Of a stretch of DNA of 64,000 bases, positions 1 through 39,875 are shown piece by piece. Position 1 is the first letter of the stretch. The number at the start of each line of letters is the position of its first letter. The notes under the pieces are model-generated. The model was not told where the DNA came from and made no database searches. It saw only the letters and a program-made list of their open reading frames with translations. This stretch comes from a virus (Duplodnaviria; Heunggongvirae; Uroviricota; Caudoviricetes), in the IMG/VR virus record IMGVR_UViG_3300022916_000894; one strand, 5' to 3'. Both the position numbers and the translations under genes were made by a program.

Positions 1-76
1 CGCGTGGGGAGTACGTCTATACAACAGTGTCTCAGAGGGCACGAGGCCGGTTCACCCCCACACGCGTGGGGAGTAC
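1..76 (-). CRISPR. CRISPR array 1 (partial, runs off the window start). A 14-nt repeat 3' end sits at 1-14, a 33-nt spacer at 15-47, and a full 29-nt repeat CGGTTCACCCCCACACGCGTGGGGAGTAC at 48-76
   Basis: The 48-76 repeat matches the 29-nt repeats at 7568-7841. The palindromic core is CCCCAC-ACGC-GTGGGG. The repeat has the same architecture as the E. coli I-E repeat read as its reverse complement (CGGTT.A.CCCC...GGGGAA..C), so transcription is inferred leftward with the leader to the right. Confidence 0.85.
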
Positions 77-149
77 ACTAACATCCTGTATGACATAATC
101 AACAAAAACACTATATATGGTAGTTTTGCAGATATAAGTGTTGATCACA
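77..149 (-). promoter_or_regulatory. Putative AT-rich leader of CRISPR array 1, lying between the cas5-cas6e stop codon and the first repeat
   Basis: Non-coding AT-rich stretch next to the repeat variant (GAGTAC 3' end) that also ends array 2 on its leader side. No promoter motif was confirmed. Confidence 0.4.
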
Positions 150-1505
150 TTACGACCTAAAAATCATATTTTCGAATAACAATAAACCACATCCTGCATT
201 TTTCTCTCTACCGATACCATTTTTACATGCTTCAACAAACAACTCTTTGTCAACAACTTTAATTTCTAATTCTACATCAGCGACAATAATATTATGCTGT
301 TTACCTTCGACTTTTTCAGTATGTGATATATTACAATTCAAAATCTTCAAACCATAATTTTTACTTCTTTTATTCAACCATTCCAATCGTTCTCGTTCAG
401 TTTTTAATAATACATTTTTTCCGTCTAGTCTTTTAACTGGATTATACCGTAACCAACAACGGAGATGATTTAATTGATCCCATTTGTCATATATTACAGG
501 ATGAATACAACACTTTATAATTCCTTTATTGTATTCGTTTAAAAAAGACCAATCAGGTTTTTTTTCAGTTTTAACTATTATATGAGATTCTTGTACAGAG
601 AATAAACATCTTCCCTTTCCTCCATCATCTATAGACGGGAGAGACTTACAAATTATATGAAAAAAGTCATGAGGATGATTTGCGAATTGATAAACATAAT
701 TTTCATTTTCAAATTTTAAAATAGTAATGTATTCATCTGCATTTTGATCACATTTGTTCTCGAAAATAATTTGGTTTTTTCTTTTTTTGATAGCGGGCAT
801 ATGTCCATGAGATACCGTAAAACTAGGAGTTTCTTTAATCAATTCAGCATTTAATGGCTTTTCAACTGATTTAATTTTTCGATAACTAAAAATTCTATCG
901 GCAGAATTAATCATTACATCCTTGATTAAAATACCATCTTTATCATTGTTTGGTATTTCTTGAATATATTCCAATTTTTCAGGTTTTTTAACATCACCAC
1001 GATAAAACCACGGTTCTTTTTCTAGGATATCCTTTCCGATAGACTTATCAGACCAATGCCTCACATATATAGGTGCAGATGGTTCGTATTCTCTCCTTCC
1101 AAGATATGGATACCATTCTGGACTCTTAACAACACCAGCTACCCACTCTATCAATTCCGAATCAGGTGAATCTAATAACACTAAAAAACTCGCATCGCAT
1201 AAATAGTGTTTATATTGAACTATAGTTTTATTTTTTGATGGTTTTTCTCCTCTTGTTAGGCGATCTTCAAATTGTGCTGTTCTAAAATCTTCTTTATATT
1301 CACCTGGATAATCAATCCTAACCGTCATTTTTGTATCATTCAATTCAATCAATTTCTCATTTGTTCGACCAATACCAGCAGCGGCACGTACCATGTTCAC
1401 AACTGCTGATTTCGTTGGAAATTTTTCGGTGTCACGAACGCTGTAATGACTTTGAATACCATACGATTGTCTTTGTCCTTCCATCTTTAATATAATTCCT
1501 GCCAT
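150..1505 (-). CDS. cas5e-cas6e: Cas5e (CasD)-Cas6e (CasE) fusion protein
   Basis: The N-terminal half carries the CasD signatures YLCDASF and YPYLGRR and an N-terminus that aligns with E. coli CasD (FPTRSGLLGLLGACLGIQR against FPTKSAVVNMVRAAAGIGR). The C-terminal ~200 aa carries Cas6e signatures: LRYNP, EWLNKRS, and the terminal GIGREKNAGCGLL (E. coli CasE ends GIGPAKSMGCGLL). It is one uninterrupted 451-aa frame. An AGGA Shine-Dalgarno lies 9 nt upstream of the ATG. Confidence 0.8.
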   Translation of the reverse strand: MAGIILKMEGQRQSYGIQSHYSVRDTEKFPTKSAVVNMVRAAAGIGRTNEKLIELNDTKMTVRIDYPGEYKEDFRTAQFEDRLTRGEKPSKNKTIVQYKHYLCDASFLVLLDSPDSELIEWVAGVVKSPEWYPYLGRREYEPSAPIYVRHWSDKSIGKDILEKEPWFYRGDVKKPEKLEYIQEIPNNDKDGILIKDVMINSADRIFSYRKIKSVEKPLNAELIKETPSFTVSHGHMPAIKKRKNQIIFENKCDQNADEYITILKFENENYVYQFANHPHDFFHIICKSLPSIDDGGKGRCLFSVQESHIIVKTEKKPDWSFLNEYNKGIIKCCIHPVIYDKWDQLNHLRCWLRYNPVKRLDGKNVLLKTERERLEWLNKRSKNYGLKILNCNISHTEKVEGKQHNIIVADVELEIKVVDKELFVEACKNGIGREKNAGCGLLLFENMIFRS

Positions 1506-1510
1506 TATTA

Positions 1511-2683
1511 TTATCCTAAATGTTTATCAATTGCTTCGATACTTGTTTTCGCTAGTTTTTCCACGAAAGAAGGATGATTTTTACAAGATTCCCAACGATC
1601 TGGATATTGTGTTTTCCAATTCCATAAAGGAACATAAAAACATTCTACATTATTATTCTCATAATCTCCATGATTTGCCAACTGATAATCCAAATATGAG
1701 ATTAGATGATCTACAACCTCTCCTGTAGACTCCGCTCCTTGTGGGGTGGTTTTTCCATAAACTCCACCACACCCATAAGTACGTTGTCCACCATGTCTAA
1801 TTCGTGCCGTTATAAATTCTGTCGTAATCTGATCGTTATTGTAAATTTCGGTCATGCCGTTTGGACGGGAATAAATTATATTCGTAATTAATTCTTTGAA
1901 GTCATCTTCAAAATCTCTTTTGTGCAAACCACTTAATTCAAAAGGACGTACAAGTTCTATACAAGCACTAACATAGTAAAGTGAATCACTGTGTGCGTAA
2001 CGAATGCCCATAAAAGAACCTTTAGACTGAGTAAGGCATAAGTCATCTTTAGCTACAATAAATTCGCTTTTTGCAGTAGGCAACCCAAGTTTATAACCAT
2101 TCATGCGCAGACAACCATCACAGTGTAATTGATTTGTCCCATCAACATTTTCCGTCTTAACTAAAGCCGGGTTGCCTCTCCAAATATCTATAGGAATAAA
2201 TTGAGTCAATTTTTCGTCTTTACCGACATACAACGATGCTATATGATTCCCGATATGTTGCAATTCTTCCTTAAATCCTAAAAATTGTTGATCTTTCTTG
2301 TTATCACTTTTCTTGTTATCACTTTTCTTGTTATTTTTTTCTTCTTTCTTCTTACCTTGAAAATATCTGCCATAGATATCTTCTGTTTTTTCATCTAATG
2401 TTTCTTTATCAATTTCAACACTATCTTTCAGTATTTCACGAACGTGATTCTTAATAAAATCAATAGCTTCAGTTCTGCTGGCAGTAATTCTAACTGGGCT
2501 ACTGGAATTTTCTCGAACTGCACGTAGCAATGCTGCCGAAAATGTGTTTTTGGGGTGATTCATATCGTCACGAACGAAATTAGCACCAGGACTGTTCCAA
2601 ATCATATCTAAGACAAGGTGCGGTGCCCCAAAATTGTTTCCTCTGTTTTTTCTTAATACATCTTTTTCGATTTCCATCGTCAT
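1511..2683 (-). CDS. cas7e: Cas7e (CasC/Cse4) Cascade backbone subunit
   Basis: N-terminal FVRDDMNHPKN matches the CasC LNRDDMNMQKD motif. QRTY is present near the C-terminus. Its size and its position between cse2 and cas5 fit. It contains a K/E/N-rich low-complexity insert. Confidence 0.7.
   Translation of the reverse strand: MTMEIEKDVLRKNRGNNFGAPHLVLDMIWNSPGANFVRDDMNHPKNTFSAALLRAVRENSSSPVRITASRTEAIDFIKNHVREILKDSVEIDKETLDEKTEDIYGRYFQGKKKEEKNNKKSDNKKSDNKKDQQFLGFKEELQHIGNHIASLYVGKDEKLTQFIPIDIWRGNPALVKTENVDGTNQLHCDGCLRMNGYKLGLPTAKSEFIVAKDDLCLTQSKGSFMGIRYAHSDSLYYVSACIELVRPFELSGLHKRDFEDDFKELITNIIYSRPNGMTEIYNNDQITTEFITARIRHGGQRTYGCGGVYGKTTPQGAESTGEVVDHLISYLDYQLANHGDYENNNVECFYVPLWNWKTQYPDRWESCKNHPSFVEKLAKTSIEAIDKHLG
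2296..2336. repeat. 15-bp tandem repeat tcttgttatcacttt, about 2.7 copies, lying inside cas7e and encoding KKSDNKKSDNKK
   Basis: Read directly from the sequence. Confidence 0.8.
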
Positions 2684-2716
2684 AATTTTGTTCTCCTTTA
2701 TTATAATTATGTTATA

Positions 2717-3214
2717 TTAATTCTTCCAAAAAGATAGCGCTAATTTGTCTTGCACAAACTCATCTTTATGATGCCAATTCATTATATCAGATAACATATT
2801 GGAATAATTAATTTTTATAGAATATTCTGTCATTCGACTAATTAATCTTTTGATTTCTATAAGAACTGTATCAATGTTGTCAAGAGTCAATAAATTGCGA
2901 AAATAATTGTTTATCAAATCAGCCTTGTCCATCGCAAAATATAATTCACGACAAGAATCTCCAAAATTCTTATATTCTTTATCTGTATTATTTTTATATT
3001 CCATAAATAACCCACCAATAAAGAAAAATTCTTTCATGAATTTATAAGGGGTACACCCTTTATACTCGCATGTTTGCCGACGAGCATTTTTATCCTCTAA
3101 TTTCAAACAGCGCCTATAGCAATTAATTGCTTCCACATTATCTTTAACAAGCAATTGATTTAAGTGTTTTATGAAATTAACCTTTAAATCATTTTTTTGT
3201 TTTGTTTCGTTCAT
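2717..3214 (-). CDS. cse2: Putative Cse2/Cas11e small subunit
   Basis: 165 aa, sitting between the large subunit and cas7 in canonical I-E gene order. It overlaps the upstream gene by 26 nt. No motif was confirmed. Confidence 0.45.
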   Translation of the reverse strand: MNETKQKNDLKVNFIKHLNQLLVKDNVEAINCYRRCLKLEDKNARRQTCEYKGCTPYKFMKEFFFIGGLFMEYKNNTDKEYKNFGDSCRELYFAMDKADLINNYFRNLLTLDNIDTVLIEIKRLISRMTEYSIKINYSNMLSDIMNWHHKDEFVQDKLALSFWKN

Positions 3215-4793
3215 TTTTTACAACTCCTTTTTTATAATTTCTTTTTTTCTTCAATGAGTTAGAAGCTTTTACCCAATTCTCCAAGTATCTTTTTCCAACA
3301 TCTTTTCTGATAGATTTCAAGATACGATCTGATATACCATGACATATTTTAATGTTCTTTTCTCTACATTCGGTAATCTTTTTTAATAGTATTGATTTTT
3401 CAATATCTTTAACCATTATATTTTTAAATTTCTGGCTGACATTAGACCAATATGAAAACAAATATTTTTCAGTGACTGTACTGTTGCTACTTTTCTTGTC
3501 ATTTTTTTCTTTCTTCTTACCTTGTACAAAATCGAAGTTATCGTTTATGACTTTTTTTAAAGATTTTTCTTCTTTTATAAATTCGTCGCATAAGCATCGA
3601 ATTTCATCAGAAAATATTTCCATATTATCTTCCAAAGAAAAATTTGAAGTTAATTCTATCGGAAGCTTTGACCTGTATATATAGCGAATTGAAGCTGACT
3701 TTACGCCGCTAATTGATACTTCAATAGGATACGAAAAACTACAACTATTTTTAAGTAATTCAGTGGCGTGTTTTATATTTTTTGGACATTTAATATCTTG
3801 GTTTTTATAATTAATTAGTGAATGGCAATTAATCCAAGAAAGTTGTTTTCGATATTTGTTTTTGTCTACGTTAAAAGGAATCCACTTCGATATTTTTTTG
3901 TCGACTTTTTTATCAGTCACTAATTTGCGGCTGTAACAAAATAAAGGTTCTATAATTGTATCTTCATATTGTTTATACCCTATTTCAGTTCTATTCTTTG
4001 CAGAAAAATACATTTTCTTAAATTTCAGCGTGTCACCACCATCAGGGATCAATTTTATTTTTCTATGAGTCGTAGTCATATAATTAATGGGACCGATTTT
4101 TTTTGCAATAGATTTTTCTTCACTTTCCCACGAAGGTAAATCGTCACTTAAATCAACCGTATCCTCTCCAAATGATGCAGCAAATGTTTTATACGGAATA
4201 GTATTTAATGAAATTATTTCAAAAAGATTGTTACCCCCAATTAAATAAATATTTTTACCTGATAATTCCGAAGTGATATATCCCCTACCTCCCGCCGGGA
4301 CTATGAATTGCATAGAGATAAGCTGTACAACAGTATCAATAGCATCAATTGGGCCGCTATTATTAGTCGTATGATTAAAAAATGGCATTGAAGATTCGCC
4401 TTCATATCCCAAACAATAAATGTGAGATATAGTTTTTTCATCCATATCTTCAGAAGTCTGCAAAAAAGGATATTTTGGGTGAATAAGATAAAATTTTTCT
4501 CGACACGATTCTAAATAATTATGAATTTTTTTGACATCTTGATCGTTAAATTTGGTTTGCTTCCACAATGTCTTACAGTCTTTTAATGTCAAAAATAAAG
4601 ATGAGCAATACAATACGGATTGCATCAATCTCAAAAGAGATATTCTTTCCCACTCATTTTTGCAAATGATTTCTATCACAGAATGCGAATCTTCAAAAAT
4701 GCTTTTAAGAGAATGCATTTTAACACCGCCATCATTACAGCAACAACGAATAAATTGTTCATCTAATAAATTGTAAGCTTTATCGCTCATCAT
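3189..4793 (-). CDS. cse1: Putative Cas8e/Cse1 large Cascade subunit
   Basis: 534 aa, lying directly downstream of cas3 in I-E gene order. The call rests on position and size only. Confidence 0.45.
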   Translation of the reverse strand: MMSDKAYNLLDEQFIRCCCNDGGVKMHSLKSIFEDSHSVIEIICKNEWERISLLRLMQSVLYCSSLFLTLKDCKTLWKQTKFNDQDVKKIHNYLESCREKFYLIHPKYPFLQTSEDMDEKTISHIYCLGYEGESSMPFFNHTTNNSGPIDAIDTVVQLISMQFIVPAGGRGYITSELSGKNIYLIGGNNLFEIISLNTIPYKTFAASFGEDTVDLSDDLPSWESEEKSIAKKIGPINYMTTTHRKIKLIPDGGDTLKFKKMYFSAKNRTEIGYKQYEDTIIEPLFCYSRKLVTDKKVDKKISKWIPFNVDKNKYRKQLSWINCHSLINYKNQDIKCPKNIKHATELLKNSCSFSYPIEVSISGVKSASIRYIYRSKLPIELTSNFSLEDNMEIFSDEIRCLCDEFIKEEKSLKKVINDNFDFVQGKKKEKNDKKSSNSTVTEKYLFSYWSNVSQKFKNIMVKDIEKSILLKKITECREKNIKICHGISDRILKSIRKDVGKRYLENWVKASNSLKKKRNYKKGVVKNERNKTKK

Positions 4794-4827
4794 TTTCTCC
4801 TGCTTCGTATACCATTATAGTCATGCA

Positions 4828-7500
4828 TCACTCGATGTCTACTCCAACTTCCGGATCAAAGGTAACTTTTTTTCCGCACCCGATATTAGATTCGTTATTT
4901 TCTAATACAATTAAATGGTAATATTGGAGACAGGTATCGTCCCAAATAGTTTCCCATTTTTTAGAATTACTAATCCTTTTAAAAATTGATTTATTTTCTT
5001 CAAAAATCTTTTCAAAAGCGAAAATAGAACTAATGGAGCATTTTTCTATTAAATTTTTGACCAATTCAGAATCATTAATATCAATTTCTTGTTTTCCTAA
5101 ATTGTCGTAATAACACTTTCCATTGATCTTGAAAATATAAATCAAACTAGCGGAAAAAGATTTTTTTCTAGTAAGTGGTATTTGAGTAATTCCCAACTCT
5201 ATTTCTTTTTCTATGTCTTTTCCGTTTATAGAATATAAATTACGTTCTAAAATAATTTCTTTTGCATCATCTATCAACGATGACGGTTTTCCAATTATTT
5301 GCAATGTAGATTCACGAGAGTCTTTTTTCTCACTTTTTTCTACCTTTTTTTGTAATTTATCTAATTCTAAAATTTGATTTTTGTCATTAGTTATCGTATC
5401 ATGATTCGAAAAATTATAAACTTTATTTATAAGAGATGATACATCGGTGGGAATAATTATTTCATTTTTATCTTTTAAAACTAATTCAGTTTTTATGCAA
5501 AAATATTTTAAATAAACAGGATTTTTTGAAACTAGTATTATGTTCATGCGTGGCTTTTCTTTTCCAAGCGGCCTAATTATATTGAATCGATGCAATCTCC
5601 CACCACGCTGTAATAAGTGATCAATCGGACACAAATCAGTAAATATTTCATCAAAATCCAAATCTAAACTGTGTTCGAGAATTTGAGTAGATATAACAAT
5701 TGCTTTTTTGGGCCGTTGCCCATTTTTTCCAAACTTTTTGTCAATATCATTTTCAATTTCTTGTCTTTTTTGTGGAGAAAATCTATTTCTAATAATATAA
5801 ACCTCTATATCATTAATATTGTTTTTCTTGAGAGTCTTTTTGATTTTTTTGCGTGTTATTATTGCGGTTTTCGCAGTATTTTTATATACACAAACACATC
5901 CTCCGTTGTTTGCAGAAGATATTATTTTATCTATACTTTTTTTTCCTGAAATAAAATCTATTGAAATTTTCTTTTCATCTTTTTTATCGAGCCGTAGAGG
6001 TTTATGAGTAATTTTTCCTGTTATACGGTTAATTACAGTAATACCGTAACCAGTAGAAAATTTATCGATATCATGTTTACCCAAATATGAACTAACAATG
6101 TCATATTGTAATTTATCAGACATAGTAGCAGACAATAGGACTGTAGGACAACCCGTATTCGCAGACCAAGAAATGGATTCTAAATTTAATGCACCAGTAA
6201 AAGAATCATAAGAGTGAATCTCATCATAAGTGATCACTTTGTGGGCGATACCGAAAGTCCTTAAGGAAAAATGTCTTACTGGCAAAATAGAAAACAATAA
6301 CTGATCTACTGTGCCAACACCATGAGGTTGTAACATCGCTACTTTTTTCATGGTTAACCATTGTCTTGCCTCTTTGGGCAACAATGCAACAACTTTTGTA
6401 AAATCGTCTACAAGATAAGCATGACCATGAATTAAATTAGAATCAAGAACACCTATTTTATTCAAAAAAATATTCTCACGCTTATATAACATGTTGCTAG
6501 AAGATTGAGTCGGCATCGCGGTATAACATCCAATCACTTTTCCCGATTTCAAAAAATGATATTTAATCATATGGCTAGTTTCGGTTTTTCCGTAACCTGT
6601 TGGGCCTTTAACCAGCACTGCGCAATCTGCCGTTATTGTCCCATCCTCAAGAAAATCTTTAGTTATTTTTTGCAATTCATTTAACGGATATCCGATGATT
6701 GTTTCCCAATCAACAGTAGAAATTTTATAGTTTGAAATCAAATGATTGGAACATAAAAATGTTGATATTTTTTTACTTCGTTTTGGCACGTCCAGTATAT
6801 ATGACCGATAATCAAACGGCGAATTTGAATTGATATTGATAGAAGCGGATGCTACCCAATCACACACGACCATAAATCCCAATATCCAAATTAAAATTTT
6901 TCTTGGTATTTCATCTGAAAAATTGTCTTTAAAAGTTGAAAAATCGATACAAGAAAAATCTTGAATATAATTAACAAATAATTTTCGTACTTCTTTCCAT
7001 TCTGCACCTGATCCTCTTTGTAATTTTTCAGACTCAAAAGGCGAACTTGATCCATGATGATTTCCGGTTAAAGTGGCAATCATGTTAAAAAAATCATAAA
7101 TATTTTCCCCATACTGATCAAATACGTCGCACATTTCTTCTCTTAATATGTCTTGACTAGAACGAGCATGCCAATAATCCGGCTTACTCCCATCACAAGA
7201 AAAATATTTCTTAATATTTAACGGTATGTCATCTGTTGTTCCAAAAATACGGTGAAGAAAAGAAGGAGTTAATTTTCCGATATCATGTAGTCCAATTATA
7301 AATGATAAAAGCGGAATTAAGTCTTCGATTTTTATGCCAAGCGATTCAGATATCCATAATTTAACATTTTCTGGGTATGAATTGATAATCTCTTTTGCAA
7401 CTAACATAGTATCAAAACAATGAAAAAGTGTTGGATACAAATTTAAACCGCTTTTTTTACCAGGCAATTTTAATAATAAATCTAACTTGTCTTTACTCAT
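4828..7500 (-). CDS. cas3: Cas3, an HD nuclease fused to a superfamily-2 helicase
   Basis: The N-terminal HD domain shows H..LHDIGK (compare HD motif II). Walker A is LVKGPTGYGKTE. A DEAH-like box appears as ITYDEIHSYD. 890 aa. Confidence 0.8.
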   Translation of the reverse strand: MSKDKLDLLLKLPGKKSGLNLYPTLFHCFDTMLVAKEIINSYPENVKLWISESLGIKIEDLIPLLSFIIGLHDIGKLTPSFLHRIFGTTDDIPLNIKKYFSCDGSKPDYWHARSSQDILREEMCDVFDQYGENIYDFFNMIATLTGNHHGSSSPFESEKLQRGSGAEWKEVRKLFVNYIQDFSCIDFSTFKDNFSDEIPRKILIWILGFMVVCDWVASASININSNSPFDYRSYILDVPKRSKKISTFLCSNHLISNYKISTVDWETIIGYPLNELQKITKDFLEDGTITADCAVLVKGPTGYGKTETSHMIKYHFLKSGKVIGCYTAMPTQSSSNMLYKRENIFLNKIGVLDSNLIHGHAYLVDDFTKVVALLPKEARQWLTMKKVAMLQPHGVGTVDQLLFSILPVRHFSLRTFGIAHKVITYDEIHSYDSFTGALNLESISWSANTGCPTVLLSATMSDKLQYDIVSSYLGKHDIDKFSTGYGITVINRITGKITHKPLRLDKKDEKKISIDFISGKKSIDKIISSANNGGCVCVYKNTAKTAIITRKKIKKTLKKNNINDIEVYIIRNRFSPQKRQEIENDIDKKFGKNGQRPKKAIVISTQILEHSLDLDFDEIFTDLCPIDHLLQRGGRLHRFNIIRPLGKEKPRMNIILVSKNPVYLKYFCIKTELVLKDKNEIIIPTDVSSLINKVYNFSNHDTITNDKNQILELDKLQKKVEKSEKKDSRESTLQIIGKPSSLIDDAKEIILERNLYSINGKDIEKEIELGITQIPLTRKKSFSASLIYIFKINGKCYYDNLGKQEIDINDSELVKNLIEKCSISSIFAFEKIFEENKSIFKRISNSKKWETIWDDTCLQYYHLIVLENNESNIGCGKKVTFDPEVGVDIE

Positions 7501-7567
7501 TTTTATTCCTTCAACACATTATAGCAACAATCTACGACAATCACCTTACTTTTATTGAAAAATTCTA

Positions 7568-7841
7568 TTTTTTACCCCCACTTACGTGGGGAATATATTG
7601 CTGCTTATGCTGCTCAAGCTGGCATTGTCGGTTCACCCCCACACGCGTGGGGAATACGTTACTCCCTTCTATTCTGCAAGCTGTCTAAGCGGTTCACCCC
7701 CACATACGTGGGGAATACTCTTCTTTAGATACAGATAATCCCGGCATCGTCGGTTCACCCCCACACGCGTGGGGAATATTTCAAGAGTATGTCGAAATTG
7801 TGGCCATCCGTCCGGTTCACCCCCACACGCGTGGGGAGTAC
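7568..7841 (-). CRISPR. CRISPR array 2, with five 29-nt repeats and four spacers of 32, 32, 32 and 33 nt
   Basis: Repeats lie at 7568-7596 (degenerate: tttacccccacttacgtggggaatat), 7629-7657, 7690-7718, 7751-7779 and 7813-7841. The stem CCCCAC/GTGGGG is conserved in every copy while the loop varies (ACGC, TTAC, ATAC). The degenerate distal repeat faces cas3 and the GAGTAC-ending repeat lies next to the AT-rich region at 7842-7933. Confidence 0.9.
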
Positions 7842-7933
7842 TTATTATTCTTTAACTTATACTACATTATAGGCAACAGTAATTTATTTTTTCGCTTAAA
7901 GCTTTTTTAGAAGAAGGAATTTCCATAGATTAC
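7842..7933 (-). promoter_or_regulatory. Putative leader of CRISPR array 2
   Basis: AT-rich non-coding sequence on the side where I-E-type repeat orientation places the leader. Confidence 0.4.
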
Positions 7934-7975
7934 ATGCTATATAGAAAGAAGCGTTGGATACTTAAAGGAGATAAA

Positions 7976-9106
7976 ATGTACAAATTTACTACAGAACAAG
8001 AGAAACATATAGTCAAAGAATACCAATCTGGCATCGGAACACCCAAATTGGCACAAGAACACGGATGTACCAAAAAGACTATTCAATTCCTATTAAAGAG
8101 ACATAATGCATTTAAAGGCAGAAAGAAATTCACAGAAGAAGAACTCCAAGAAATTAAACAACGCTATCTTAATTACGAAACCGCCAGTCAAATCGCAAAA
8201 GATTTTGAAGTAGGAGAAAGAGCAATCAAAAACAGACTTATTGAAATGGAACTTTATACGATAGGCAAACGTCGCCCAAAGACAAAACATTGGACTGATA
8301 AAAAGAAGAAAAAAGCAGTACAGATGTATAAAAAAGGGAAAAGAGTCAATGATATAGCAAGGCATTTTAACGTTACTCCATCAGGTATAAGATATACATT
8401 GGTTAAAAACAAAGTATGGAAGTTTAAAGGAGTGAGAAAATATACATGCAATTTTGATTTCTTTGAAAAAATAGATACAGAAGAAAAAGCATATTGGTTA
8501 GGATTTATAGGGGCAGATGGTAATGTATTTAAAAATTGTCTCCACATTGGTATACATGAAAACGATGTTAAACACCTTGAAAAATTTAGTAAACATATTA
8601 CTGGTAATTACCCCGTTAGAATCAAAACATATATATCAAGAGGTAAACCATCTAGCATAGCGAGGATAGATATTCATAGCAATAAGATAATAAATGACTT
8701 ATACAGATCAGGAATTACACCTAAGAAATCTCATACTATCTCTTGGCAAAAAACTACTAAAAATATTCCAAAACATCTTATACATCATTTCGTGAGGGGA
8801 TACTTTGATGGAGATGGCAGTTGGAAAAAAAGTGGTAAAAATGGTAACGGAATACATTTTTCTGTAGCGTGTGGAAGTGGTGATTTCATTTTGGGATTAC
8901 AAAAACAATTATGTTCTAGTTGTGGATTGTCAATGGTCAAAATCTACTCTAAAAAAACGAATGACAAAAAAGCTAATAATTATGCATTGGAATATGGTGG
9001 ACGTTTACAGGAAATACGTATCTATAATTGGATGTACAATAATGCTACATTATTTTTAGAGAGAAAAAAAGATAAGGCATATAAGTATTTATTCGAAGTC
9101 TCTTAA
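7976..9106 (+). CDS. Free-standing LAGLIDADG homing endonuclease with three N-terminal helix-turn-helix repeats
   Basis: Two LAGLIDADG motifs are present: YWLGFIGADGNV and YFDGDGSW. The N-terminal ~170 aa hold three ~50-aa helix-turn-helix-like repeats. AAGGAG lies 7 nt upstream of the ATG at 7976. The 7934 ATG given in the ORF track is probably not the true start. Confidence 0.7.
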   Translation: MYKFTTEQEKHIVKEYQSGIGTPKLAQEHGCTKKTIQFLLKRHNAFKGRKKFTEEELQEIKQRYLNYETASQIAKDFEVGERAIKNRLIEMELYTIGKRRPKTKHWTDKKKKKAVQMYKKGKRVNDIARHFNVTPSGIRYTLVKNKVWKFKGVRKYTCNFDFFEKIDTEEKAYWLGFIGADGNVFKNCLHIGIHENDVKHLEKFSKHITGNYPVRIKTYISRGKPSSIARIDIHSNKIINDLYRSGITPKKSHTISWQKTTKNIPKHLIHHFVRGYFDGDGSWKKSGKNGNGIHFSVACGSGDFILGLQKQLCSSCGLSMVKIYSKKTNDKKANNYALEYGGRLQEIRIYNWMYNNATLFLERKKDKAYKYLFEVS

Positions 9107-10510
9107 GTCGTAGACTTGTTTAGCGTCGATACATTCTTTTGGTATGTATTCCATATAATTAGTAGTTAAAAACCAGAACCAATGTTTAGGATATTGAGGG
9201 TTTACATGGTTCCCATACGAATCCGTTAATACCCACACTGCTTTTGGGTATTCGCATTTCTCTTTCTTAATAACTCGTTGTATCGTACTCTCAATACAAT
9301 CAAAAGCCGTACCACCACCGCCAAGGGCTTTCATATTTCCTTTTGTTATAACTACTTCATGCATCATTGTATCAAAACACCATAGACGTACCTCAAACTT
9401 GTCGCTAGGCAATGATGCTGCCGCATGAGCAAAACGATCAAATAGATGAGAGCAACTGCCAGAATTGTCAATCACGAACCATACTTTGATTTTGCCTTCT
9501 TCTTCGTATAAATCTTCTACTTCCATTTCAGTAGGCAAAAAGAAATCATTTGGTAATATGGTGAACCGTCTGTTTATTCGTACCCATTGTTCTAAGTCGC
9601 GTGAAGCAAACTTAACTTCTTTTAGCATCCACTTTTTAATAATGGTTTCCCATTTTTTCTTTGTAGGTACATTATCGACTTTAGAAAATGACCAAAAACC
9701 GCCAGCCCCAACGCCCGCAGTTTGATCGCCTTGACCGCTGCCATCCTTGGGCAATTTTTCTTCTTGAAAATGTTCATCAATCATATCTTCAAGGTCGCTT
9801 TTTTCTTCTTCCGTCATATCTTCGTTTAATTCTTCGATGATTTCTTTTAATGCCTCTGTGTCCTTTAATCCATCATGGTCGTCAAACGAATCACTACCAA
9901 GTCCTTGACCTTCTCCGCTATCGCCTTCTCCACCGCCGCCACCAGGAGTTATAGGAAGAAGATTATAATAGTATTCAAAGCTTTTGTTGTCGGGTGGAAT
10001 TCTGCCCTTTAAAGTCTCCAACATTTCTGGATGTCTTTTTGGATCAAAAACAGTATCTACCCAACAGAAGTCACGATAATCCCCATGAGGTTCAGCACCT
10101 TCTGGCAACATATCCTTTTCGAAGCCTTTAATCTTGTGTCTATTAAAACCGAATTTATTAACAAGCAAATGATTTACTACAATGTCTAGACATACATTAA
10201 CTGCTTGTCTATTGCTTTTTCTGACACCTTTCATCCTAACTCCATGATTCAGAATAAGATGGAGCATTTCGTGGCAGATAACAAAACGGCGGCTATAATC
10301 ATCGAGATAATTCCAAAATTTGGGATTGAATTCGAAAATCATCCCTTCGCCTTCTTTATTGAAGATCACGCCAGCAGTAGGGATTTTATCTGAAAAACCT
10401 GGTTTGCCCATTTCCCAAAATTTGTGGAAAATCACATGCTTATCTTGCAGACTATCAGCGATAGCAAAGAATTCATCATTATCTATTTTGGCTGTGACTG
10501 TTTCCGTCAT
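9089..10510 (-). CDS. Zincin-like metallopeptidase domain (HExxH) fused to a VWA domain (DUF2201-type partner of MoxR ATPases)
   Basis: HEMLH lies in the N-terminal half. A MIDAS-like VIDNSGS sits in the C-terminal VWA-like domain. It overlaps the next gene by 4 nt. Confidence 0.6.
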   Translation of the reverse strand: MTETVTAKIDNDEFFAIADSLQDKHVIFHKFWEMGKPGFSDKIPTAGVIFNKEGEGMIFEFNPKFWNYLDDYSRRFVICHEMLHLILNHGVRMKGVRKSNRQAVNVCLDIVVNHLLVNKFGFNRHKIKGFEKDMLPEGAEPHGDYRDFCWVDTVFDPKRHPEMLETLKGRIPPDNKSFEYYYNLLPITPGGGGGEGDSGEGQGLGSDSFDDHDGLKDTEALKEIIEELNEDMTEEEKSDLEDMIDEHFQEEKLPKDGSGQGDQTAGVGAGGFWSFSKVDNVPTKKKWETIIKKWMLKEVKFASRDLEQWVRINRRFTILPNDFFLPTEMEVEDLYEEEGKIKVWFVIDNSGSCSHLFDRFAHAAASLPSDKFEVRLWCFDTMMHEVVITKGNMKALGGGGTAFDCIESTIQRVIKKEKCEYPKAVWVLTDSYGNHVNPQYPKHWFWFLTTNYMEYIPKECIDAKQVYDLRDFE

Positions 10511-13080
10511 GATGCCTTTCTGCTCTTAAAATAGAATCCGTTCTTTACTGCCGCATATGCCAAAACAGCGGGGAAAGAGTCTTTGAATTTACTGAATTTA
10601 TAGCCATGTGTTTTCAGGTTATCAATGCACGTATTAATCATGGCAGGTAATTCAGTCCATTTCTTTACTGTGTCTCTGTGAGTCATCTTAATCACTTTTT
10701 CCAACACTGTTAATACTTTAATAGACGTATCCTTAGACATAACATTTGGCATTCCATTCTTAATAACATTGAATGCATCGATTCTGAAAAATGTAGAATC
10801 GAAATCGCCATCGATTTTATCGTCAAGTTGTTTGCCAAAAGAGACTGTTTCTTTTTTCTTTACTTGATAATTGTCTATCCTATTATCATTTACGGCAGGC
10901 GAATCCGGCATAGACGAGATTTGTTTCATGCCATCTTCTGAGAAACGCTTTCTGATTTGGCTGACCAAGGCTTTGTTCATGTCTGCTTTTTCAATTTCTT
11001 TCAAAGCTTCTTTGATCGTTTTATGCCTAGAATAGTTTTTCAAGGCCCACATCATTACGCTACTGCTTTGAGAGATAAGCATATTGATTTTTTCAGCAGG
11101 CATAAATGGGACAAAAAGATCGACCTTTACTCTATCTCTTAATATCTCATGTTTTGCCAAATCAAAATTATTCTCATTTTCTAGAAATTCTTTGATTTTA
11201 TCATCATCTTTTCCTACCATCAACGATTCTAGCTTCGCTATGATTGGTCTTTCTTTGATAATTTTGGTCAATTCTGCCGGATTACAACCCTTTGGCAATG
11301 CATAGCCAACATTTCCACCCTTGAAGAAAATCTCAAGAGCATAATCCAAACGACGAGGGGATACCTTAGTGATGATATCAGGATGCTCTTTTTTTAGTTT
11401 CTTCCACCATTCGATAGAACCATTTGCTACGTCTTTTCCATACTTGTGTATGAAATAAGGCATACTTGGTTCAAATTTCAATTCGATGTGGATTTGGAAT
11501 CTATCTTTTTGAGCAGGGTCCAATTTCTCAACGTCGAAATCTAGTTCTTCATCATCATCTGGGTTAATAGCCGCCCAAATTACTTTCAAGTTTTTGAATT
11601 CCCTACCATTAATAGATTTGAATTGAATCAATTCCATCACAGCATTTCTAATTTTTTTTGGGCTATTATGGACGAACACGCCTTGTCCTACTGCGAAGTT
11701 ATTATAATCATCCACAGTGATGTCATAAACATCTTCATAACCAGCATCTTCAATTTTAATCACTCTATGATTTTTGTTTTCTGAATATTCACTTTGAAAA
11801 TGATTTACAAAATTATCAAAAGAACCAAAGTGTTTTTCGAGAGTGCTGATTTTCATGAGGTATTTACCACGACTATTTTTTGCCAAATTTTTTATTCGAC
11901 TACGAATTGTTTCATATAATTCCGGAGTCAACAATACGCCTTCTTCTAATTGTGTTTTTAGAATTTTTATCGTGTATGACAGTCTCGCTTTACGATTAGC
12001 AGTTACTCTATCTATGTTGTCAAATTGCCCATTCGCCCATGCTTTTTTTGCTCGTTGAGACTGTTCGTTTTTCTTTTGTTTGTCCCAGAAATTTAAAGAG
12101 ATTTTCGACCTATTTTTTTTGTACTGCTCGTCTGATTGGCGTGTTTTTATAGATGCTGCGACGGCTTTAGAACGACTATTGGCATTACCTATCGTTCTTA
12201 AATAATGTAGTGGATATTTTTCATGTACAGTTTTTCCTCCATCTGAAGCGTGTTTAAAAATATGTTCTTCTTTTGAAAGCCGCTCGATATTTAACGGAGA
12301 ATTATTAAAACGATTTTTATCTTTATGATGACGATAACCACCAGTGCTTTTTTTGTATATTTTAGTTAAAATATTATATTTATCTGCTAAATGATAAGTA
12401 AATTCCCAACGAGTTGGTCGTACTGAAGAAACTAATTCATAACCATTTTTATTATATTTTTTGTATAATGCCATTAGAGCATCATCAGGTTCGAGATCAC
12501 CCGCTTTGACATATAAACCAGTCGTCAAAAGAAAAGGATGATCACCAGTACATCGTACAGATAACCCATTATCTAATGTGACTTTTATAACTTTTTGTTT
12601 TTTGCCAGTTTTTCTGGCAGAATGACCTCTTCCAACAGCCATACATTTATTTTTAAGATCATAACTATACACAAAAAACTCTTTTTTATCAACTAAATCT
12701 TTAATAGGAATCGAATAACCATCGGCTAATTGAATAGGAGTATCACCAGTTAAACATCTGTTAAATTCATCAAACAAAATTGCTTCTACTTCATCATCTT
12801 CAAATTCTCGTGGCTTAATCAACTTCAAATATGCTTTGCCTGTTTTTTTATCTTCAACCCGTGCTGGCACCCCAAGAAAGTCAACCCACGGGTCCATAGT
12901 GGCGGCAGAAAACATACGATAGTTCAGCCCTTCATTGTCCCATAAACTCTTAATAATGCTGGATTTGCCAACACCGTGTCTACCGATAAACAATACATTC
13001 CAATCGTTCTTAAGGCACAACTGTAATTTTTTGGTTAATGTATCTTCGGCTACAAAAGCACCTGTGTCAAAGTCGGCCAA
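10507..13080 (-). CDS. MoxR-like AAA+ ATPase interrupted by a ~370-aa intein
   Basis: Walker A is GRHGVGKSS. The Walker B region reads ILFDEFNR|C. Intein block A, CLTGDTPIQLADG, begins immediately after the NR. The intein ends in VFVHN|S, after which the ATPase sequence resumes. Confidence 0.7.
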   Translation of the reverse strand: MADFDTGAFVAEDTLTKKLQLCLKNDWNVLFIGRHGVGKSSIIKSLWDNEGLNYRMFSAATMDPWVDFLGVPARVEDKKTGKAYLKLIKPREFEDDEVEAILFDEFNRCLTGDTPIQLADGYSIPIKDLVDKKEFFVYSYDLKNKCMAVGRGHSARKTGKKQKVIKVTLDNGLSVRCTGDHPFLLTTGLYVKAGDLEPDDALMALYKKYNKNGYELVSSVRPTRWEFTYHLADKYNILTKIYKKSTGGYRHHKDKNRFNNSPLNIERLSKEEHIFKHASDGGKTVHEKYPLHYLRTIGNANSRSKAVAASIKTRQSDEQYKKNRSKISLNFWDKQKKNEQSQRAKKAWANGQFDNIDRVTANRKARLSYTIKILKTQLEEGVLLTPELYETIRSRIKNLAKNSRGKYLMKISTLEKHFGSFDNFVNHFQSEYSENKNHRVIKIEDAGYEDVYDITVDDYNNFAVGQGVFVHNSPKKIRNAVMELIQFKSINGREFKNLKVIWAAINPDDDEELDFDVEKLDPAQKDRFQIHIELKFEPSMPYFIHKYGKDVANGSIEWWKKLKKEHPDIITKVSPRRLDYALEIFFKGGNVGYALPKGCNPAELTKIIKERPIIAKLESLMVGKDDDKIKEFLENENNFDLAKHEILRDRVKVDLFVPFMPAEKINMLISQSSSVMMWALKNYSRHKTIKEALKEIEKADMNKALVSQIRKRFSEDGMKQISSMPDSPAVNDNRIDNYQVKKKETVSFGKQLDDKIDGDFDSTFFRIDAFNVIKNGMPNVMSKDTSIKVLTVLEKVIKMTHRDTVKKWTELPAMINTCIDNLKTHGYKFSKFKDSFPAVLAYAAVKNGFYFKSRKAS

Positions 13081-30448: not shown

Positions 30449-30901
30449 TTATTCGGAATCCTTCTCTGATTCATAATTTTTCGACAATATCCAGAATGGA
30501 ATGACCTCAACATTTTTATGTTCATAAGATAAAACTTTTTCCATTTTCTTCCCGGCTTCCTCGTTCATTGTATGAATGACAATAGGAGTATCAATATGAA
30601 GCTTTTCTTCATGCATCACTTTTACCACATCAATTCCATCGCCATTGGGTCCACGGGTGTATGCTCCACCTAAGTCGTGATCTAGAAAGATTTTATCATA
30701 CTTATTAAGACACAATTTTGCGATAGCCCTAATTGGTCCGTGGGCGTAATCCACATTTCTCGCTCCAAAAGTGTTTAAAAACCACCCAATTCGCCAATGG
30801 TCGTCATCTAGTACAAATATTTTCATTACTCTTCCTCCATTGTGTCCCAGTACACTTGGCTTAATAGCCATTTTATTAATATAGGATTGCGAGATTCGCA
30901 T
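30449..30901 (-). CDS. Receiver-like (Rossmann-like) domain protein with LDDD...DHDLGG motifs
   Basis: It shares its motifs with the ORF at 62015..62368. Confidence 0.4.
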   Translation of the reverse strand: MRISQSYINKMAIKPSVLGHNGGRVMKIFVLDDDHWRIGWFLNTFGARNVDYAHGPIRAIAKLCLNKYDKIFLDHDLGGAYTRGPNGDGIDVVKVMHEEKLHIDTPIVIHTMNEEAGKKMEKVLSYEHKNVEVIPFWILSKNYESEKDSE

Positions 30902-31357: not shown

Positions 31358-32161
31358 TTACGTACCATTTCCATACACCGTATTATGAGTTCTTGAGACG
31401 CGAATAAATTCACAGCATTTATTAAAATACTTTAACTTACTCGCTCCAACATACGTGCAAGCCGATCTTAAACCACCAAGAATGTCTTGAACAATATCTT
31501 CTGCCTTACCTTTATAGGGAATTGAAACAGTTTTTCCCTCAGAAGTTCTATATTTTTTTACTCCATCATGGTATTTTTCTTGTGCATCCTTAGATGACAT
31601 ACCGTAAAATTTCAAAGTTTTTTTACCAACATTTTTAGCAGTTTTTTCAAGTTCTGTTTCTACATATCTAAGGGCATCTTCCCAAGAATGAAACATTTTA
31701 CCTTCACCACTGTTTTGCTGTTCATACGAAGAAATCGTAATAGGAATATTCTCCTTGTCAACAATTCTTGTTCTCATGCTTTCTCGTACATAATTATTCA
31801 AAGATGAATAATATTCGTGTCGTTTTTGTTCTTCGTCTTGCAATTCGTGATATTCCCATTCGCCCTCACATTCGCTTGTGCCAGCGAAGAATCCACCCAA
31901 CATAACGAAGTCAGCACCAGCGCCAAATGCCTTACAGACATCACCTGTGACGTTACAGCCCCCATCAGAGCAGACATGACCATCCAATCCGTGTGCTGCA
32001 CTTTTTGTCTCTAACACCGCTGACAATTGAGGATATCCACAATTATGAACAACCATGCTCTCGACACAATAAGAATGATTGTTTTCAACTGTTAAATCAT
32101 AAACGTCTTCTAGATTAGATTTTACATTTTTTTTAAATACTTTTTTAAGTTTGAATTTCAT
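31358..32161 (-). CDS. guaC: GMP reductase/IMPDH-family C-terminal half, preceded by a ~40-aa C-intein (split-intein C fragment)
   Basis: It begins MKFKLKK...MVVHN|CGYPQLSAV...DGGC...[14 protein letters not shown]...FYGMSS...[16 protein letters not shown]. This aligns with E. coli GuaC from VGYPQLSAV onward. Confidence 0.8.
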
Positions 32162-32858: not shown

Positions 32859-32920
32859 AATATTTCTCCATAGTGTATAAAATAGGTAAATCTATACTAT
32901 TTTATACACTATAAAATAAT

Positions 32921-39866: not shown

Positions 39867-39875
39867 TGTTTCTCC

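What the first reader, a model, noticed from the sequence alone, without database searches (positions are those of the whole stretch)
1..7933. Compact type I-E-like CRISPR-Cas interference module with no adaptation genes, bracketed by two arrays, on a phage-like element
Cas3, Cse1-like, Cse2-like, Cas7e and the Cas5e-Cas6e fusion lie in canonical I-E order on the minus strand. The Cas6e stop is followed directly by a leader and an array at 1-76, and Cas3 is preceded directly by a second array at 7568-7841. Both arrays are oriented so they are co-transcribed with the cas genes. No cas1 or cas2 exists anywhere in the 64 kb. The rest of the window is phage-like (ligase, tail fibre, nucleotide metabolism, homing endonucleases, inteins). 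A carrier-encoded, adaptation-less I-E system would be a weapon against competing elements or the host rather than host immunity
Basis: partly seen in the sequence, partly recalled or inferred. Interest (0 to 1): 0.85.

Follow-up and report, generated by a model that had tools for sequence, protein, structure and literature searches.

The report
Adaptation-less type I-E CRISPR on jumbo-phage-like element
A large, phage-like mobile element carries a complete DNA-cutting type I-E CRISPR-Cas machine with two small spacer arrays but no genes for acquiring spacers, a situation already known from huge phages, and here two of the Cascade proteins (Cas5e and Cas6e) are fused.

Summary
Window 1-7933 holds a minus-strand operon of cas3, cse1/cas8e, cse2/cas11e, a very divergent cas7e and a cas5e-cas6e fusion. 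Two co-oriented arrays of a canonical 29-nt I-E repeat flank it: 4 spacers upstream, and 8 downstream once the contig is extended. Cas3 nuclease and helicase motifs and the candidate Cas6e catalytic histidine are intact.

No cas1, cas2 or cas4 was found in the 64 kb or in about 70 kb of flanks.

The carrier is at least about 200 kb. It is rich in homing endonucleases, inteins, nucleotide-metabolism, replication and RNA-repair genes. No capsid, terminase, portal or tail gene was recognised in about 135 kb, so "phage" is likely but unproven.

No target was found for any of the 12 spacers, so the "weapon" reading is untested.

Adaptation-less CRISPR-Cas on huge phages is already published (Al-Shayeb 2020). 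What looks new:
- the I-E subtype in this setting;
- the near-unrecognisable Cas7e;
- the Cas5e-Cas6e fusion. It is rare (4 other clusters among the top 150 homologues, one beside TniQ), and no paper describing it was found.

Verdict: a new variant of a known kind, of moderate interest.

The parts
1..76 (-). Start of CRISPR array 1, downstream of cas6e: first repeat 48-76, spacer 16-47, partial second repeat 1-15. It continues off the window to 9 repeats and 8 spacers (L001 11430-11952).
77..149 (-). AT-rich 73-nt leader-like stretch between the cas5e-cas6e stop codon and the first repeat of array 1.
   Evidence: A promoter here is inferred, not shown.
150..1505 (-). cas5e-cas6e fusion gene (451 aa): Cas5e domain about residues 1-215, linker about 215-275, Cas6e domain about 275-445.
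   Evidence: The ORF is identical on at least 12 contigs. H279 and the C-terminal G-rich loop are conserved in 5 fusions.
1511..2683 (-). Highly divergent cas7e (390 aa).
   Evidence: Own Cas7e HMM: the only hit among all window ORFs, E 2.7e-5. Non-circular hhalign: 84% probability, E 7.5e-6, 297 columns. Conserved N..RDD...PK, DD and P.G motifs. Weak, collinear PF09344 hit. Foldseek: the top 47 PDB hits are all chains of type I-E Cascade entries, taken to be Cas7e (partly circular).
2717..3214 (-). cse2/cas11e small subunit (165 aa). Its start overlaps the cse1 3' end by 26 nt.
3189..4793 (-). cse1/cas8e large subunit (534 aa).
4828..7500 (-). cas3 (890 aa), HD nuclease plus SF2 helicase. HD motifs (LHDIGK, NHHG, CDW), Walker A GPTGYGKTE, DEIH, SAT and QRGGRLHR are all present.
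7568..7841 (-). CRISPR array 2, directly upstream of cas3: 5 repeats (the last, 7568-7596, is degenerate) and 4 spacers of 32-33 nt.
7842..7933 (-). AT-rich leader-like region of array 2. It contains a TATAAT hexamer about 25 nt upstream of the first repeat.
   Evidence: Promoter function is inferred.

Best explanation
This is an intact type I-E interference module: Cas3 plus a four-gene Cascade in which Cas5e and Cas6e are one polypeptide. It has two short arrays and sits on a large (at least about 200 kb) mobile element that is most probably a jumbo phage. The module has no spacer-acquisition genes of its own.

Proposed working:
1. Each array is transcribed from its AT-rich leader in the same direction as the cas operon. 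Array 2 may read through into cas3.
2. The Cas6e domain recognises the 6-bp GC stem and GCGU loop of the repeat and cuts at its 3' base. This gives crRNAs of about 61 nt with an 8-nt 5' handle (GUGAACCG) and a 3' hairpin.
3. Cas5e caps the handle, Cas7e coats the 32-33 nt spacer, and Cse1 and Cse2 complete Cascade.
4. Cascade binds a matching, PAM-flanked double-stranded DNA and recruits Cas3, which degrades it.

The hairpin and the handle lie side by side in one repeat. The fusion therefore probably binds one whole repeat of the precursor and couples cutting to nucleation of the next Cascade (inference).

The fixed set of 12 spacers would direct destruction of specific DNA of the host or of competing elements. 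New spacers, if any, would need a host I-E Cas1-Cas2, because the repeat is identical to chromosomal I-E repeats.

Shown: gene identities, intact motifs, array anatomy, and absence of cas1/cas2 nearby. Inferred: expression, crRNA ends, the role of the fusion, target class, and spacer acquisition in trans.
For: - Profile hits for Cas3e, Cas8e, Cas11e, Cas5e and Cas6e.
- Cas7e by custom HMM and hhalign.
- Cas3 aligns with T. terrenum and T. fusca I-E Cas3, with HD and helicase motifs conserved.
- The Cas6e domain aligns with T. thermophilus Cse3 from residue 22 onward. It has a histidine invariant among five fusions and the GxGxxKxxGCGLL loop.
- The repeat folds into the I-E hairpin at -13.1 kcal/mol.
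- Its 24-nt core is identical to I-E arrays in 85 genome stretches across many phyla. The 29-mer of array 2 is identical to that of six lineages.
- The arrays are co-oriented with the cas genes, with degenerate distal repeats.
- The locus is 100% identical over 7.8-11.5 kb in four contigs from four samples.
- No Cas1, Cas2 or Cas4 in the window or in the flanks.
- Element size comes from the contig map: a 150,434-bp contig covers window 38260 to 188693, a 42-kb contig covers -3870 to 38200, and L001 and L106 extend further left.
- Phage-like content: 3 inteins, LAGLIDADG and HNH endonucleases, NAD ligase, Pnkp, Thg1, Rnl2, CCA-adding enzyme, Ro60, dCMP deaminases, a ThyA-like gene, clamp loader, one tRNA.
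- Precedent: almost all huge-phage CRISPR systems lack Cas1, Cas2 and Cas4 (PMC7162821).
Against: - No capsid, portal, terminase or tail family was found in about 135 kb (and the Pfam columns).
- The element is absent from IMG/VR. It has only single-gene matches of about 30-39% to INPHARED phages.
- No protospacer was found for any spacer in the window and flanks, INPHARED, PLSDB or IMG/VR (exact matches, 11 of 12 spacers), or in JGI metagenomes (2 spacers).
- The arrays are identical in all samples, so nothing points to ongoing acquisition.
- Cas7e fails all curated models.
- The cas operon has lower GC (31%) than the rest of the window (36%).
- About 90 kb of the 150-kb contig was not seen. 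cas1 and cas2 could lie there.
Confidence: 0.7

Rival explanations
1. The carrier is not a virus but a megaplasmid, another extrachromosomal element or a genomic island. The I-E module then serves inter-element competition or defence of that element.
For: No virion or packaging gene was recognised in about 135 kb. A PcfJ-like gene, metabolic clusters (nonulosonic acid, Fe-S assembly), DnaJ, ClpP and clamp-loader genes are present. The element is absent from IMG/VR. Al-Shayeb 2020 notes large plasmid-like elements with similar gene suites.
Against: No plasmid replication, partition, relaxase or type IV secretion families were seen. The region has dense one-strand gene packing, three inteins, many free-standing homing endonucleases, T4-type RNA repair and dNTP-pool genes, a tRNA, and PHROG matches throughout. 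No housekeeping genes were seen.
Confidence: 0.2
2. The system is adaptive after all, because cas1-cas2 (and possibly cas4) sit elsewhere in the unexamined part of the genome.
For: At least about 90 kb of the 150-kb contig, plus any unassembled remainder, were not inspected. Some phage systems, such as ICP1, are complete.
Against: In I-E loci cas1-cas2 normally follow cas6e directly. Here an array follows instead. About 135 kb around the locus has none. All four contigs inspected, from four samples, carry the same spacers.
Confidence: 0.1
3. The locus is a decaying or repurposed remnant that no longer cuts DNA. For example, it could only bind or regulate, or its arrays could act as decoys for a host I-E system.
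For: Cas7e is extremely divergent. No targets were found. The arrays are static and short, with some mutated repeats (one repeat has a 1-nt insertion, L001 11801-11830). The repeat is identical to host-type repeats, so the crRNAs could also load host Cascade.
Against: All five ORFs are intact and overlapping or tightly spaced. The Cas3 HD and helicase motifs and the candidate Cas6e catalytic histidine are conserved. The locus is conserved at 100% across samples.
Confidence: 0.08

Closest known systems
Canonical chromosomal type I-E CRISPR-Cas (E. coli K-12, Thermobifida fusca Cascade/Cas3)
   Same: The same gene order, cas3-cse1-cse2-cas7-cas5-cas6e. A 29-nt hairpin repeat and 32-33 nt spacers. 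Cas3 with an HD nuclease plus a helicase. The repeat core is identical to many chromosomal I-E arrays.
   Different: No cas1-cas2. Cas5e and Cas6e are fused. Cas7e is barely recognisable. There is one array on each side of the operon. The carrier is an AT-rich mobile element.
CRISPR-Cas systems of huge phages (Al-Shayeb et al. 2020, PMC7162821; 2022 Cell paper not readable here)
   Same: A large phage-like genome, an interference module with small arrays, and no Cas1, Cas2 or Cas4. The proposed role is against the host or competing phages.
   Different: The type I example described in that paper is an I-C variant, with Cas5 as the likely processing enzyme and a non-Cas3 helicase. Here a full I-E set with a bona fide Cas3 is present. 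Virus identity is not proven here and no targets were found.
Vibrio phage ICP1 type I-F system
   Same: A phage-borne class 1 system with a Cas3-type nuclease, used offensively (against the PLE element in ICP1).
   Different: ICP1 is I-F, keeps Cas1 and Cas2/3, acquires spacers, and has known targets. The present system is I-E, lacks adaptation genes, and has unknown targets.
Type I-C Cascade, where Cas5c both processes pre-crRNA and caps the 5' handle
   Same: One polypeptide would both cut the repeat and hold the 5' handle (own knowledge of I-C; the analogy is an inference).
   Different: Here that is achieved by fusing two separate I-E proteins, with the Cas6e fold retained. In I-C, Cas6 was lost.
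Type I-E HNH-Cascade (Cas5-HNH fusion; PDB 8yb6, 8zol)
   Same: Another I-E variant built by fusing a domain to the C-terminus of Cas5e. It turned up among the homologues.
   Different: That variant replaces Cas3 with an HNH nuclease. Here Cas3 is kept and the fused partner is Cas6e.
Plasmid type IV-A3 systems that acquire spacers in trans from host I-E Cas1-Cas2 (cited in PMC11656645; bioRxiv 10.1101/2023.06.23.546257)
   Same: An adaptation-less system on a mobile element that could depend on a host I-E adaptation module.
   Different: Type IV uses DinG and represses transcription. Acquisition in trans is only a hypothesis here.

Membership tests
Type I-E CRISPR-Cas | Cas3 with an N-terminal HD nuclease and an SF2 helicase (Cas3e) | tested here: met
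   PADLOC Cas3e 6.8e-124; cas3_core 2.3e-50; PDB 4q2c 3.6e-56. Motifs are intact.
Type I-E CRISPR-Cas | Large subunit Cse1/Cas8e | tested here: met
   PF09481 2.4e-38, above cutoff; PADLOC Cas8e 1.6e-37. NCBIfam TIGR02547 2.1e-12, below its cutoff.
Type I-E CRISPR-Cas | Separate small subunit Cse2/Cas11e | tested here: met
   PF09485 1.8e-10; TIGR02548 32.5 bits against a cutoff of 28.5; PADLOC Cas11e 1.1e-11.
Type I-E CRISPR-Cas | Backbone subunit Cas7e/CasC | tested here: met
   Curated models fail: PF09344 18.9 bits against a cutoff of 26; none in NCBIfam or PADLOC. Custom evidence: own HMM E 2.7e-5, the unique hit in the window. hhalign against 49 Cas7e sequences gives 84% probability, E 7.5e-6, 297 columns. 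Motifs are conserved. Position and size are right. Met only by custom profiles, so treat as weak.
Type I-E CRISPR-Cas | Cas5e and Cas6e (crRNA 5'-handle cap and repeat endonuclease) | tested here: met
   Both are present, but as one 451-aa protein. TIGR01868 105.6 bits against a cutoff of 69. PF08798 67.7 bits against a cutoff of 25. PDB hits to Cas5e 5u07_N and Cse3 1wj9.
Type I-E CRISPR-Cas | 29-nt repeat with a GC hairpin and ...AACCG 3' end, 32-33 nt spacers | tested here: met
   The 24-nt core is identical to I-E arrays of many genomes. No Rfam family reached its gathering score.
Type I-E CRISPR-Cas | Cas1e-Cas2e adaptation module next to cas6e | tested here: not met
   No Cas1 or Cas2 family in any window ORF or in about 70 kb of flanks. 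This makes it an interference-only I-E variant.
Type I-E CRISPR-Cas | PAM-dependent crRNA-guided DNA degradation | not testable with these tools
   No protospacers were found, so not even a PAM could be derived.
Virus-encoded (huge-phage) CRISPR-Cas | The carrier genome encodes virion and packaging proteins (major capsid, portal, terminase) | tested here: inconclusive
   None were recognised by Pfam or PHROGs in about 135 kb (and the precomputed Pfam columns). At least about 90 kb were not inspected. The accessory gene content is phage-like.
Virus-encoded (huge-phage) CRISPR-Cas | Spacers match the host or competing mobile elements | tested here: inconclusive
   No match in the window and flanks, INPHARED, PLSDB, IMG/VR (exact) or JGI contigs (2 spacers). 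The metagenome collection does not even hold this element.
CRISPR-associated transposon (type I CAST) | TniQ and TnsABC beside a Cas3-less Cascade | tested here: not met
   No transposase or TniQ in the window, and Cas3 is present and intact. One other Cas5e-Cas6e fusion (P0067) does sit beside TniQ.

The most novel reading that the evidence does not exclude
The Cas5e-Cas6e fusion marks a streamlined, interference-only form of type I-E that recurs on mobile elements: this jumbo-phage-like element, a TniQ-linked locus, and at least one further cas3-to-fusion operon with no cas1/cas2 following. In it, a single polypeptide binds both halves of one repeat (hairpin and 5' handle). That would couple pre-crRNA cutting to Cascade nucleation and give a four-protein Cascade of unusual stoichiometry or head-to-tail linkage.
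Probability: 0.3. Interest if true: 0.6.

Novelty: new variant of a known kind. Interest (0 to 1): 0.5.

Why it matters
If the carrier is a jumbo phage, this adds a full Cas3-containing I-E system to the offensive CRISPR toolkits of viruses. It would also provide a natural four-gene Cascade.

The fusion raises a structural question. In known Cascade structures Cas5e and Cas6e sit at opposite ends of the complex, so how can one chain serve both? A smaller I-E effector set could also be useful for long-range genome deletion tools.

The exact identity of the repeat with chromosomal I-E repeats makes cross-talk with a host I-E system directly testable. That cross-talk could run through borrowed Cas1-Cas2, or through phage crRNAs loading host Cascade.

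Tried and rejected
- Megablast of 1-9200 against INPHARED: no match.
- Close relatives of the fusion and of the 1043-aa ORF in IMG/VR: none.
- Word-indexed homologue search for Cas7: only itself.
- PDB phmmer for Cas7: nothing.
- Single-sequence AlphaFold model of Cas7: unusable, pLDDT 33.
- hhalign against an alignment that contained the query: discarded as circular and redone without it.
- Host inference from the repeat: rejected. The same repeat occurs in Chloroflexota, Nitrospinota, Planctomycetota, Bacillota, Acidobacteriota, Cloacimonadota and others. None of 821 spacers from those arrays matches the element.
- Spacer targets:
  - pairs of spacers were merged into IUPAC patterns to cover 10 spacers in 5 IMG/VR scans, and one more was scanned singly: no hit.
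  - BLAST of all 12 spacers against phages and plasmids: no hit;
  - the JGI scan with the exact repeat found nothing, so that collection lacks this element; a spacer-pair scan there also found nothing.
- PHROG scans of all remaining window ORFs and 10 flank ORFs: no structural family.
- The 1142-aa "tail fibre" candidate: no Pfam or PDB support, only short matches to phage hypothetical proteins. It cannot be called a tail fibre.
- The Cbp1-like hit of the HTH-LAGLIDADG gene beside array 2: rejected as CRISPR-related, because a paralogue lies elsewhere in the genome.
- Literature searches for a natural Cas5e-Cas6e fusion, for I-E CASTs and for the sample accessions: nothing relevant.
- Al-Shayeb 2022 and Faure 2019 are not held in the library.
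Full report
**1. What is at 1-7933**

ORF listing shows five tightly packed minus-strand genes.

- 4828-7500 (890 aa) is Cas3: Pfam Cas3_HD 5.9e-27 and Cas3-like_C 1.9e-28, NCBIfam cas3_core 2.3e-50, PADLOC Cas3e 6.8e-124.
- phmmer against the PDB aligns it with the type I-E Cas3 of Thermobaculum terrenum (4q2c, 3.6e-56) and Thermobifida fusca (4qqw and 6c66, about 5e-36). The alignment shows conserved HD residues (LHDIGK, NHHG, CDW), Walker A GPTGYGKTE, the DEIH box, SAT and QRGGRLHR. By sequence, the nuclease-helicase looks active.
- 3189-4793 is Cse1/Cas8e (PF09481 2.4e-38; PADLOC 1.6e-37).
- 2717-3214 is Cse2/Cas11e (PF09485 1.8e-10; TIGR02548 above its cutoff).
- 150-1505 is a single 451-aa protein. 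Residues 3-150 and beyond match Cas5e (TIGR01868 3e-30; PDB 5u07_N 3.4e-20). Residues 275-443 match Cas6e (PF08798 2.3e-18; T. thermophilus Cse3 1wj9 and 2y8w, about 1e-8 to 4e-10).
- The fusion ORF is found unchanged on at least 12 contigs, so it is not an assembly accident.

**2. The fifth gene, cas7**

The 390-aa ORF 1511-2683 sits where cas7e belongs but fails every curated model. Pfam PF09344 scores 18.9 bits against a cutoff of 26. NCBIfam and PADLOC give nothing. The PDB gives no sequence hit. A word-indexed search of 5.8 billion proteins finds only the protein itself.

I therefore built profiles from canonical Cas7e proteins.

- An HMM of 18 Cas7e sequences, taken from genome loci that carry the same repeat, hits this ORF alone among all six-frame window ORFs of 40 aa or more (E 2.7e-5).
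- A non-circular hhalign against 49 Cas7e sequences gives 84% probability, E 7.5e-6, over 297 columns (query residues 24-337).
- A MAFFT alignment shows the N-terminal N..RDD...PK motif, the central DD and the P.G motif in register.
- An AlphaFold model built on that alignment is mediocre (pLDDT 58.6). Its 47 best Foldseek matches in the whole PDB are all chains of type I-E Cascade entries, which I take to be Cas7e. The best is 5u07_E, E 0.014, TM 0.33. This last test is partly circular, because the alignment consisted of Cas7e sequences.

I accept the gene as a very divergent cas7e.

**3. The arrays**

The repeat, read on the minus strand, is GTAYTCCCCACGCGTGTGGGGGTGAACCG (29 nt). It folds into a 6-bp GC stem with a GCGU loop (-13.1 kcal/mol), leaving an 8-nt 3' tail. 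This is the I-E layout.

- Array 2 (7568-7841) has four good repeats, one degenerate distal repeat that abuts the cas3 upstream region, and four spacers of 32-33 nt.
- Array 1 begins 73 nt after the cas5e-cas6e stop codon (repeat 48-76) and leaves the window.
- On contigs 100% identical to the window it has 9 repeats. One carries a 1-nt insertion and the last is degenerate. There are 8 spacers.
- Both arrays point the same way as the cas genes. The two leader-like stretches are AT-rich and show no convincing similarity to each other.
- The simple promoter scan gives no more sites than shuffled sequence (48 against 40.6 ± 5.3). Promoters are therefore inferred only.

**4. No adaptation genes nearby**

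I concatenated every predicted ORF of 60 aa or more outside the cas operon into pseudo-proteins and scanned them against Pfam. No Cas1, Cas2 or Cas4 family appeared.

The contig was then extended through exact-protein look-ups.

- About 30 kb beyond the window start hold small ORFs, T4-type Rnl2, a nucleoside deoxyribosyltransferase, SSB, PARP, a LAGLIDADG gene, PcfJ, NifU, NUDIX and an AAA ATPase.
- About 36 kb beyond the window end hold a 1005-aa CCA-adding/HD enzyme, NIF3, Ro60/TROVE, DnaJ, pol III delta and gamma/tau, ClpP, topoisomerase IA, HNH genes and a nonulosonic-acid synthesis cluster.

No cas gene occurs in any of this. About 90 kb of the 150-kb contig remain unseen.

**5. What carries it**

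Mapping the contigs of one sample onto the window gives two pieces. A 42-kb contig covers window -3870 to 38200. A 150,434-bp contig covers 38260 to 188693. Other samples hold contigs of 93.5 kb and 188 kb. The element is thus at least about 200 kb.

Its content is what jumbo phages typically carry:
- genes almost all on one strand;
- three intein-containing genes;
- several free-standing LAGLIDADG and HNH endonucleases;
- NAD-dependent ligase, Pnkp, Thg1-like, Rnl2, CCA-adding enzyme and Ro60;
- two dCMP deaminases, a thymidylate-synthase-like enzyme and dNMP phosphatases;
- an adenine methyltransferase, an ADP-ribosylglycohydrolase, clamp-loader subunits and one tRNA-Cys.

No plasmid replication, partition or conjugation machinery and no housekeeping operon was seen.

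Against this, neither Pfam nor PHROGs recognised any capsid, portal, terminase, sheath, tube or baseplate protein in about 135 kb. The 1142-aa "tail fibre" candidate has no family or structure support. The element is absent from IMG/VR. Eight of its proteins find only scattered matches of 30-39% in INPHARED.

I put "phage" at roughly 0.75-0.8 and say so plainly.

**6. What the spacers hit**

Nothing was found.
- There is no self-match in the window or flanks.
- BLAST of all 12 spacers against 50,697 phage records and 72,556 plasmids returned nothing at E up to 1.
- Exact-pattern scans of IMG/VR covered 11 of the 12 spacers, ten of them as IUPAC-merged pairs, without a match.
- The JGI contig collection lacks even the element's own array. 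It gave nothing for one spacer pair.

The idea that the system attacks the host or rival elements rests on analogy with published huge-phage systems, not on data from this locus. The spacer sets are identical in the four contigs inspected, from four samples, so there is also no sign of ongoing acquisition.

**7. The repeat and the host**

The 24-nt repeat core occurs exactly in I-E arrays of 85 genome stretches. These span Chloroflexota, Nitrospinota, Planctomycetota, Bacillota, Acidobacteriota, Ignavibacteria, Cloacimonadaceae and others.

The 29-mer of array 2 (GTATTCC...) is identical to the dominant repeat of Cloacimonadaceae, Dehalococcoidales, Ardenticatenia, Gemmataceae, Syntrophomonadaceae and Acidobacteriota loci. 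The repeat therefore gives no host assignment. None of 821 spacers from those arrays matches the element.

It does show that a GC-rich, fully canonical repeat is maintained on a 31-36% GC element whose Cas proteins have drifted far. That fits selection on repeat function. It also leaves open cross-talk with a host I-E system, such as Cas1-Cas2 acting in trans, as reported for plasmid type IV-A3 systems.

**8. The fusion**

An exhaustive HMMER search of 1.84 billion representative proteins gave 2288 hits. Nearly all are free-standing Cas5e of about 220-250 aa at 30-40% identity.

- Of the top 150, four are Cas5e-Cas6e fusions (P0056, P0067, P0081, P0128), confirmed by Pfam. Three more are the known Cas5-HNH fusions.
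- The five fusions are only about 25% identical to one another. They share a histidine at the start of the Cas6e domain (H279 here) and the C-terminal glycine-rich loop.
- Contexts:
  - P0056 lies in cas3-cse1-cse2-cas7-fusion with no cas1/cas2 after it and a mini-array upstream of cas3.
  - P0128 follows a cas7 and is followed by unrelated genes.
  - P0067 is followed by TniQ.
- I found no paper describing a natural Cas5e-Cas6e fusion. Two key surveys could not be read.

Mechanistic inference: in solved I-E Cascade structures Cas5e and Cas6e sit at opposite ends of the crRNA (own knowledge of structures such as 4tvx and 5u07). In the precursor, however, the hairpin and the 8-nt handle are adjacent within one repeat. 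A fusion with a linker of about 60 residues fits binding to one whole repeat, cutting it, and staying on the handle of the downstream crRNA to seed Cas7 assembly. This is functionally like Cas5c of type I-C. Whether the Cas6e domain then keeps the upstream hairpin, linking complexes or adding a second copy per complex, is open.

**9. Comparison with what is known, and verdict**

Al-Shayeb et al. 2020 state that almost all huge-phage CRISPR systems lack Cas1, Cas2 and Cas4. They describe a type I-C variant and propose host or competitor targeting and host complementation. A 2024 review repeats this. The general phenomenon is therefore known.

This locus passes the tests for every type I-E interference component and for the repeat. 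It fails only the adaptation-module test. It is not a CAST, because Cas3 is present and there is no transposase.

I file it as a new variant of a known kind: an interference-only I-E system with a Cas5e-Cas6e fusion and a highly diverged Cas7e, on a jumbo-phage-like element of at least 200 kb. Interest is moderate (0.5). It is a clean, probably functional example with an unusual subunit architecture. Its carrier type and its targets remain unproven, and the headline idea is not new.

Noticed in passing
window 10507-13080, 31358-33877, 35604-37628: Three intein-containing genes. These are a MoxR-like AAA ATPase, an IMPDH/GMP-reductase-like gene, and a D12 adenine methyltransferase. The IMPDH-like gene is split into two ORFs with an HNH endonuclease ORF (32145-32858) between the halves.
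   Followed up: no
window 54590-55498, 34321-35082, 62365-63987, 30449-30901, 62015-62368; L001 15927-16973; L009 303-1952: A large RNA/tRNA-repair set: Pnkp, Thg1-like guanylyltransferase, a 1005-aa CCA-adding/HD enzyme (cut by the window end), Rnl2, Ro60/TROVE with vWA, and two cREC_REC receiver-domain proteins.
   Followed up: partly
window 43056-44159 (-) and 44222-44509 (+): An ABC/OLD-type ATPase matching the PtuA, AriA and GajA defence models (best 3.9e-20). It lies divergently beside a small HNH ORF. This could be a defence-like or homing module on the element.
   Followed up: no
window 45481-48909 (+): A 1142-aa ORF on the opposite strand with 44% GC in a region of about 36% GC. It has no Pfam or PDB match, only short matches to phage hypothetical proteins and to a 462-kb uncultured phage.
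   Followed up: partly
window 7934-9106 (+); L104 665-1627: The HTH-LAGLIDADG gene next to array 2 gives a sub-threshold hit to the CRISPR repeat-binding protein Cbp1 family. It has a paralogue about 90 kb away (27% identity, E 3e-18), so it is more likely a free-standing homing endonuclease.
   Followed up: yes
window 39330-40433, 41198-41956, 44494-45120, 49320-50192; L104 9124-9528: A cluster of dNTP-pool enzymes: two dCMP deaminases, a dNMP phosphatase, NT5C, a thymidylate-synthase-like enzyme, and a dGTP diphosphohydrolase-like domain. This hints at modified DNA bases in the element.
   Followed up: no
L107 1-7776; L098 and L104: The flanks carry a nonulosonic-acid (NeuB, CMP-transferase, PIG-L, formyltransferase, sulfotransferase) biosynthesis cluster, plus DnaJ, ClpP, pol III delta and gamma/tau, and topoisomerase IA.
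   Followed up: no
L005 250-3419; P0050, P0061, P0112: Among the Cas5e homologues, one Cas5e-Cas6e fusion is followed directly by a TniQ gene, which may mark an I-E transposon-associated system. Several others are Cas5-HNH fusions.
   Followed up: partly
window 37642-38757 (-): A 371-aa ORF of unknown function with a twin-arginine (TAT) signal peptide, which is unusual on a phage-like element.
   Followed up: no
window about 38200-38260: The assembly of sample ERZ27245997 breaks here into a 42-kb and a 150-kb contig. Other assemblies run through the same position.
   Followed up: no
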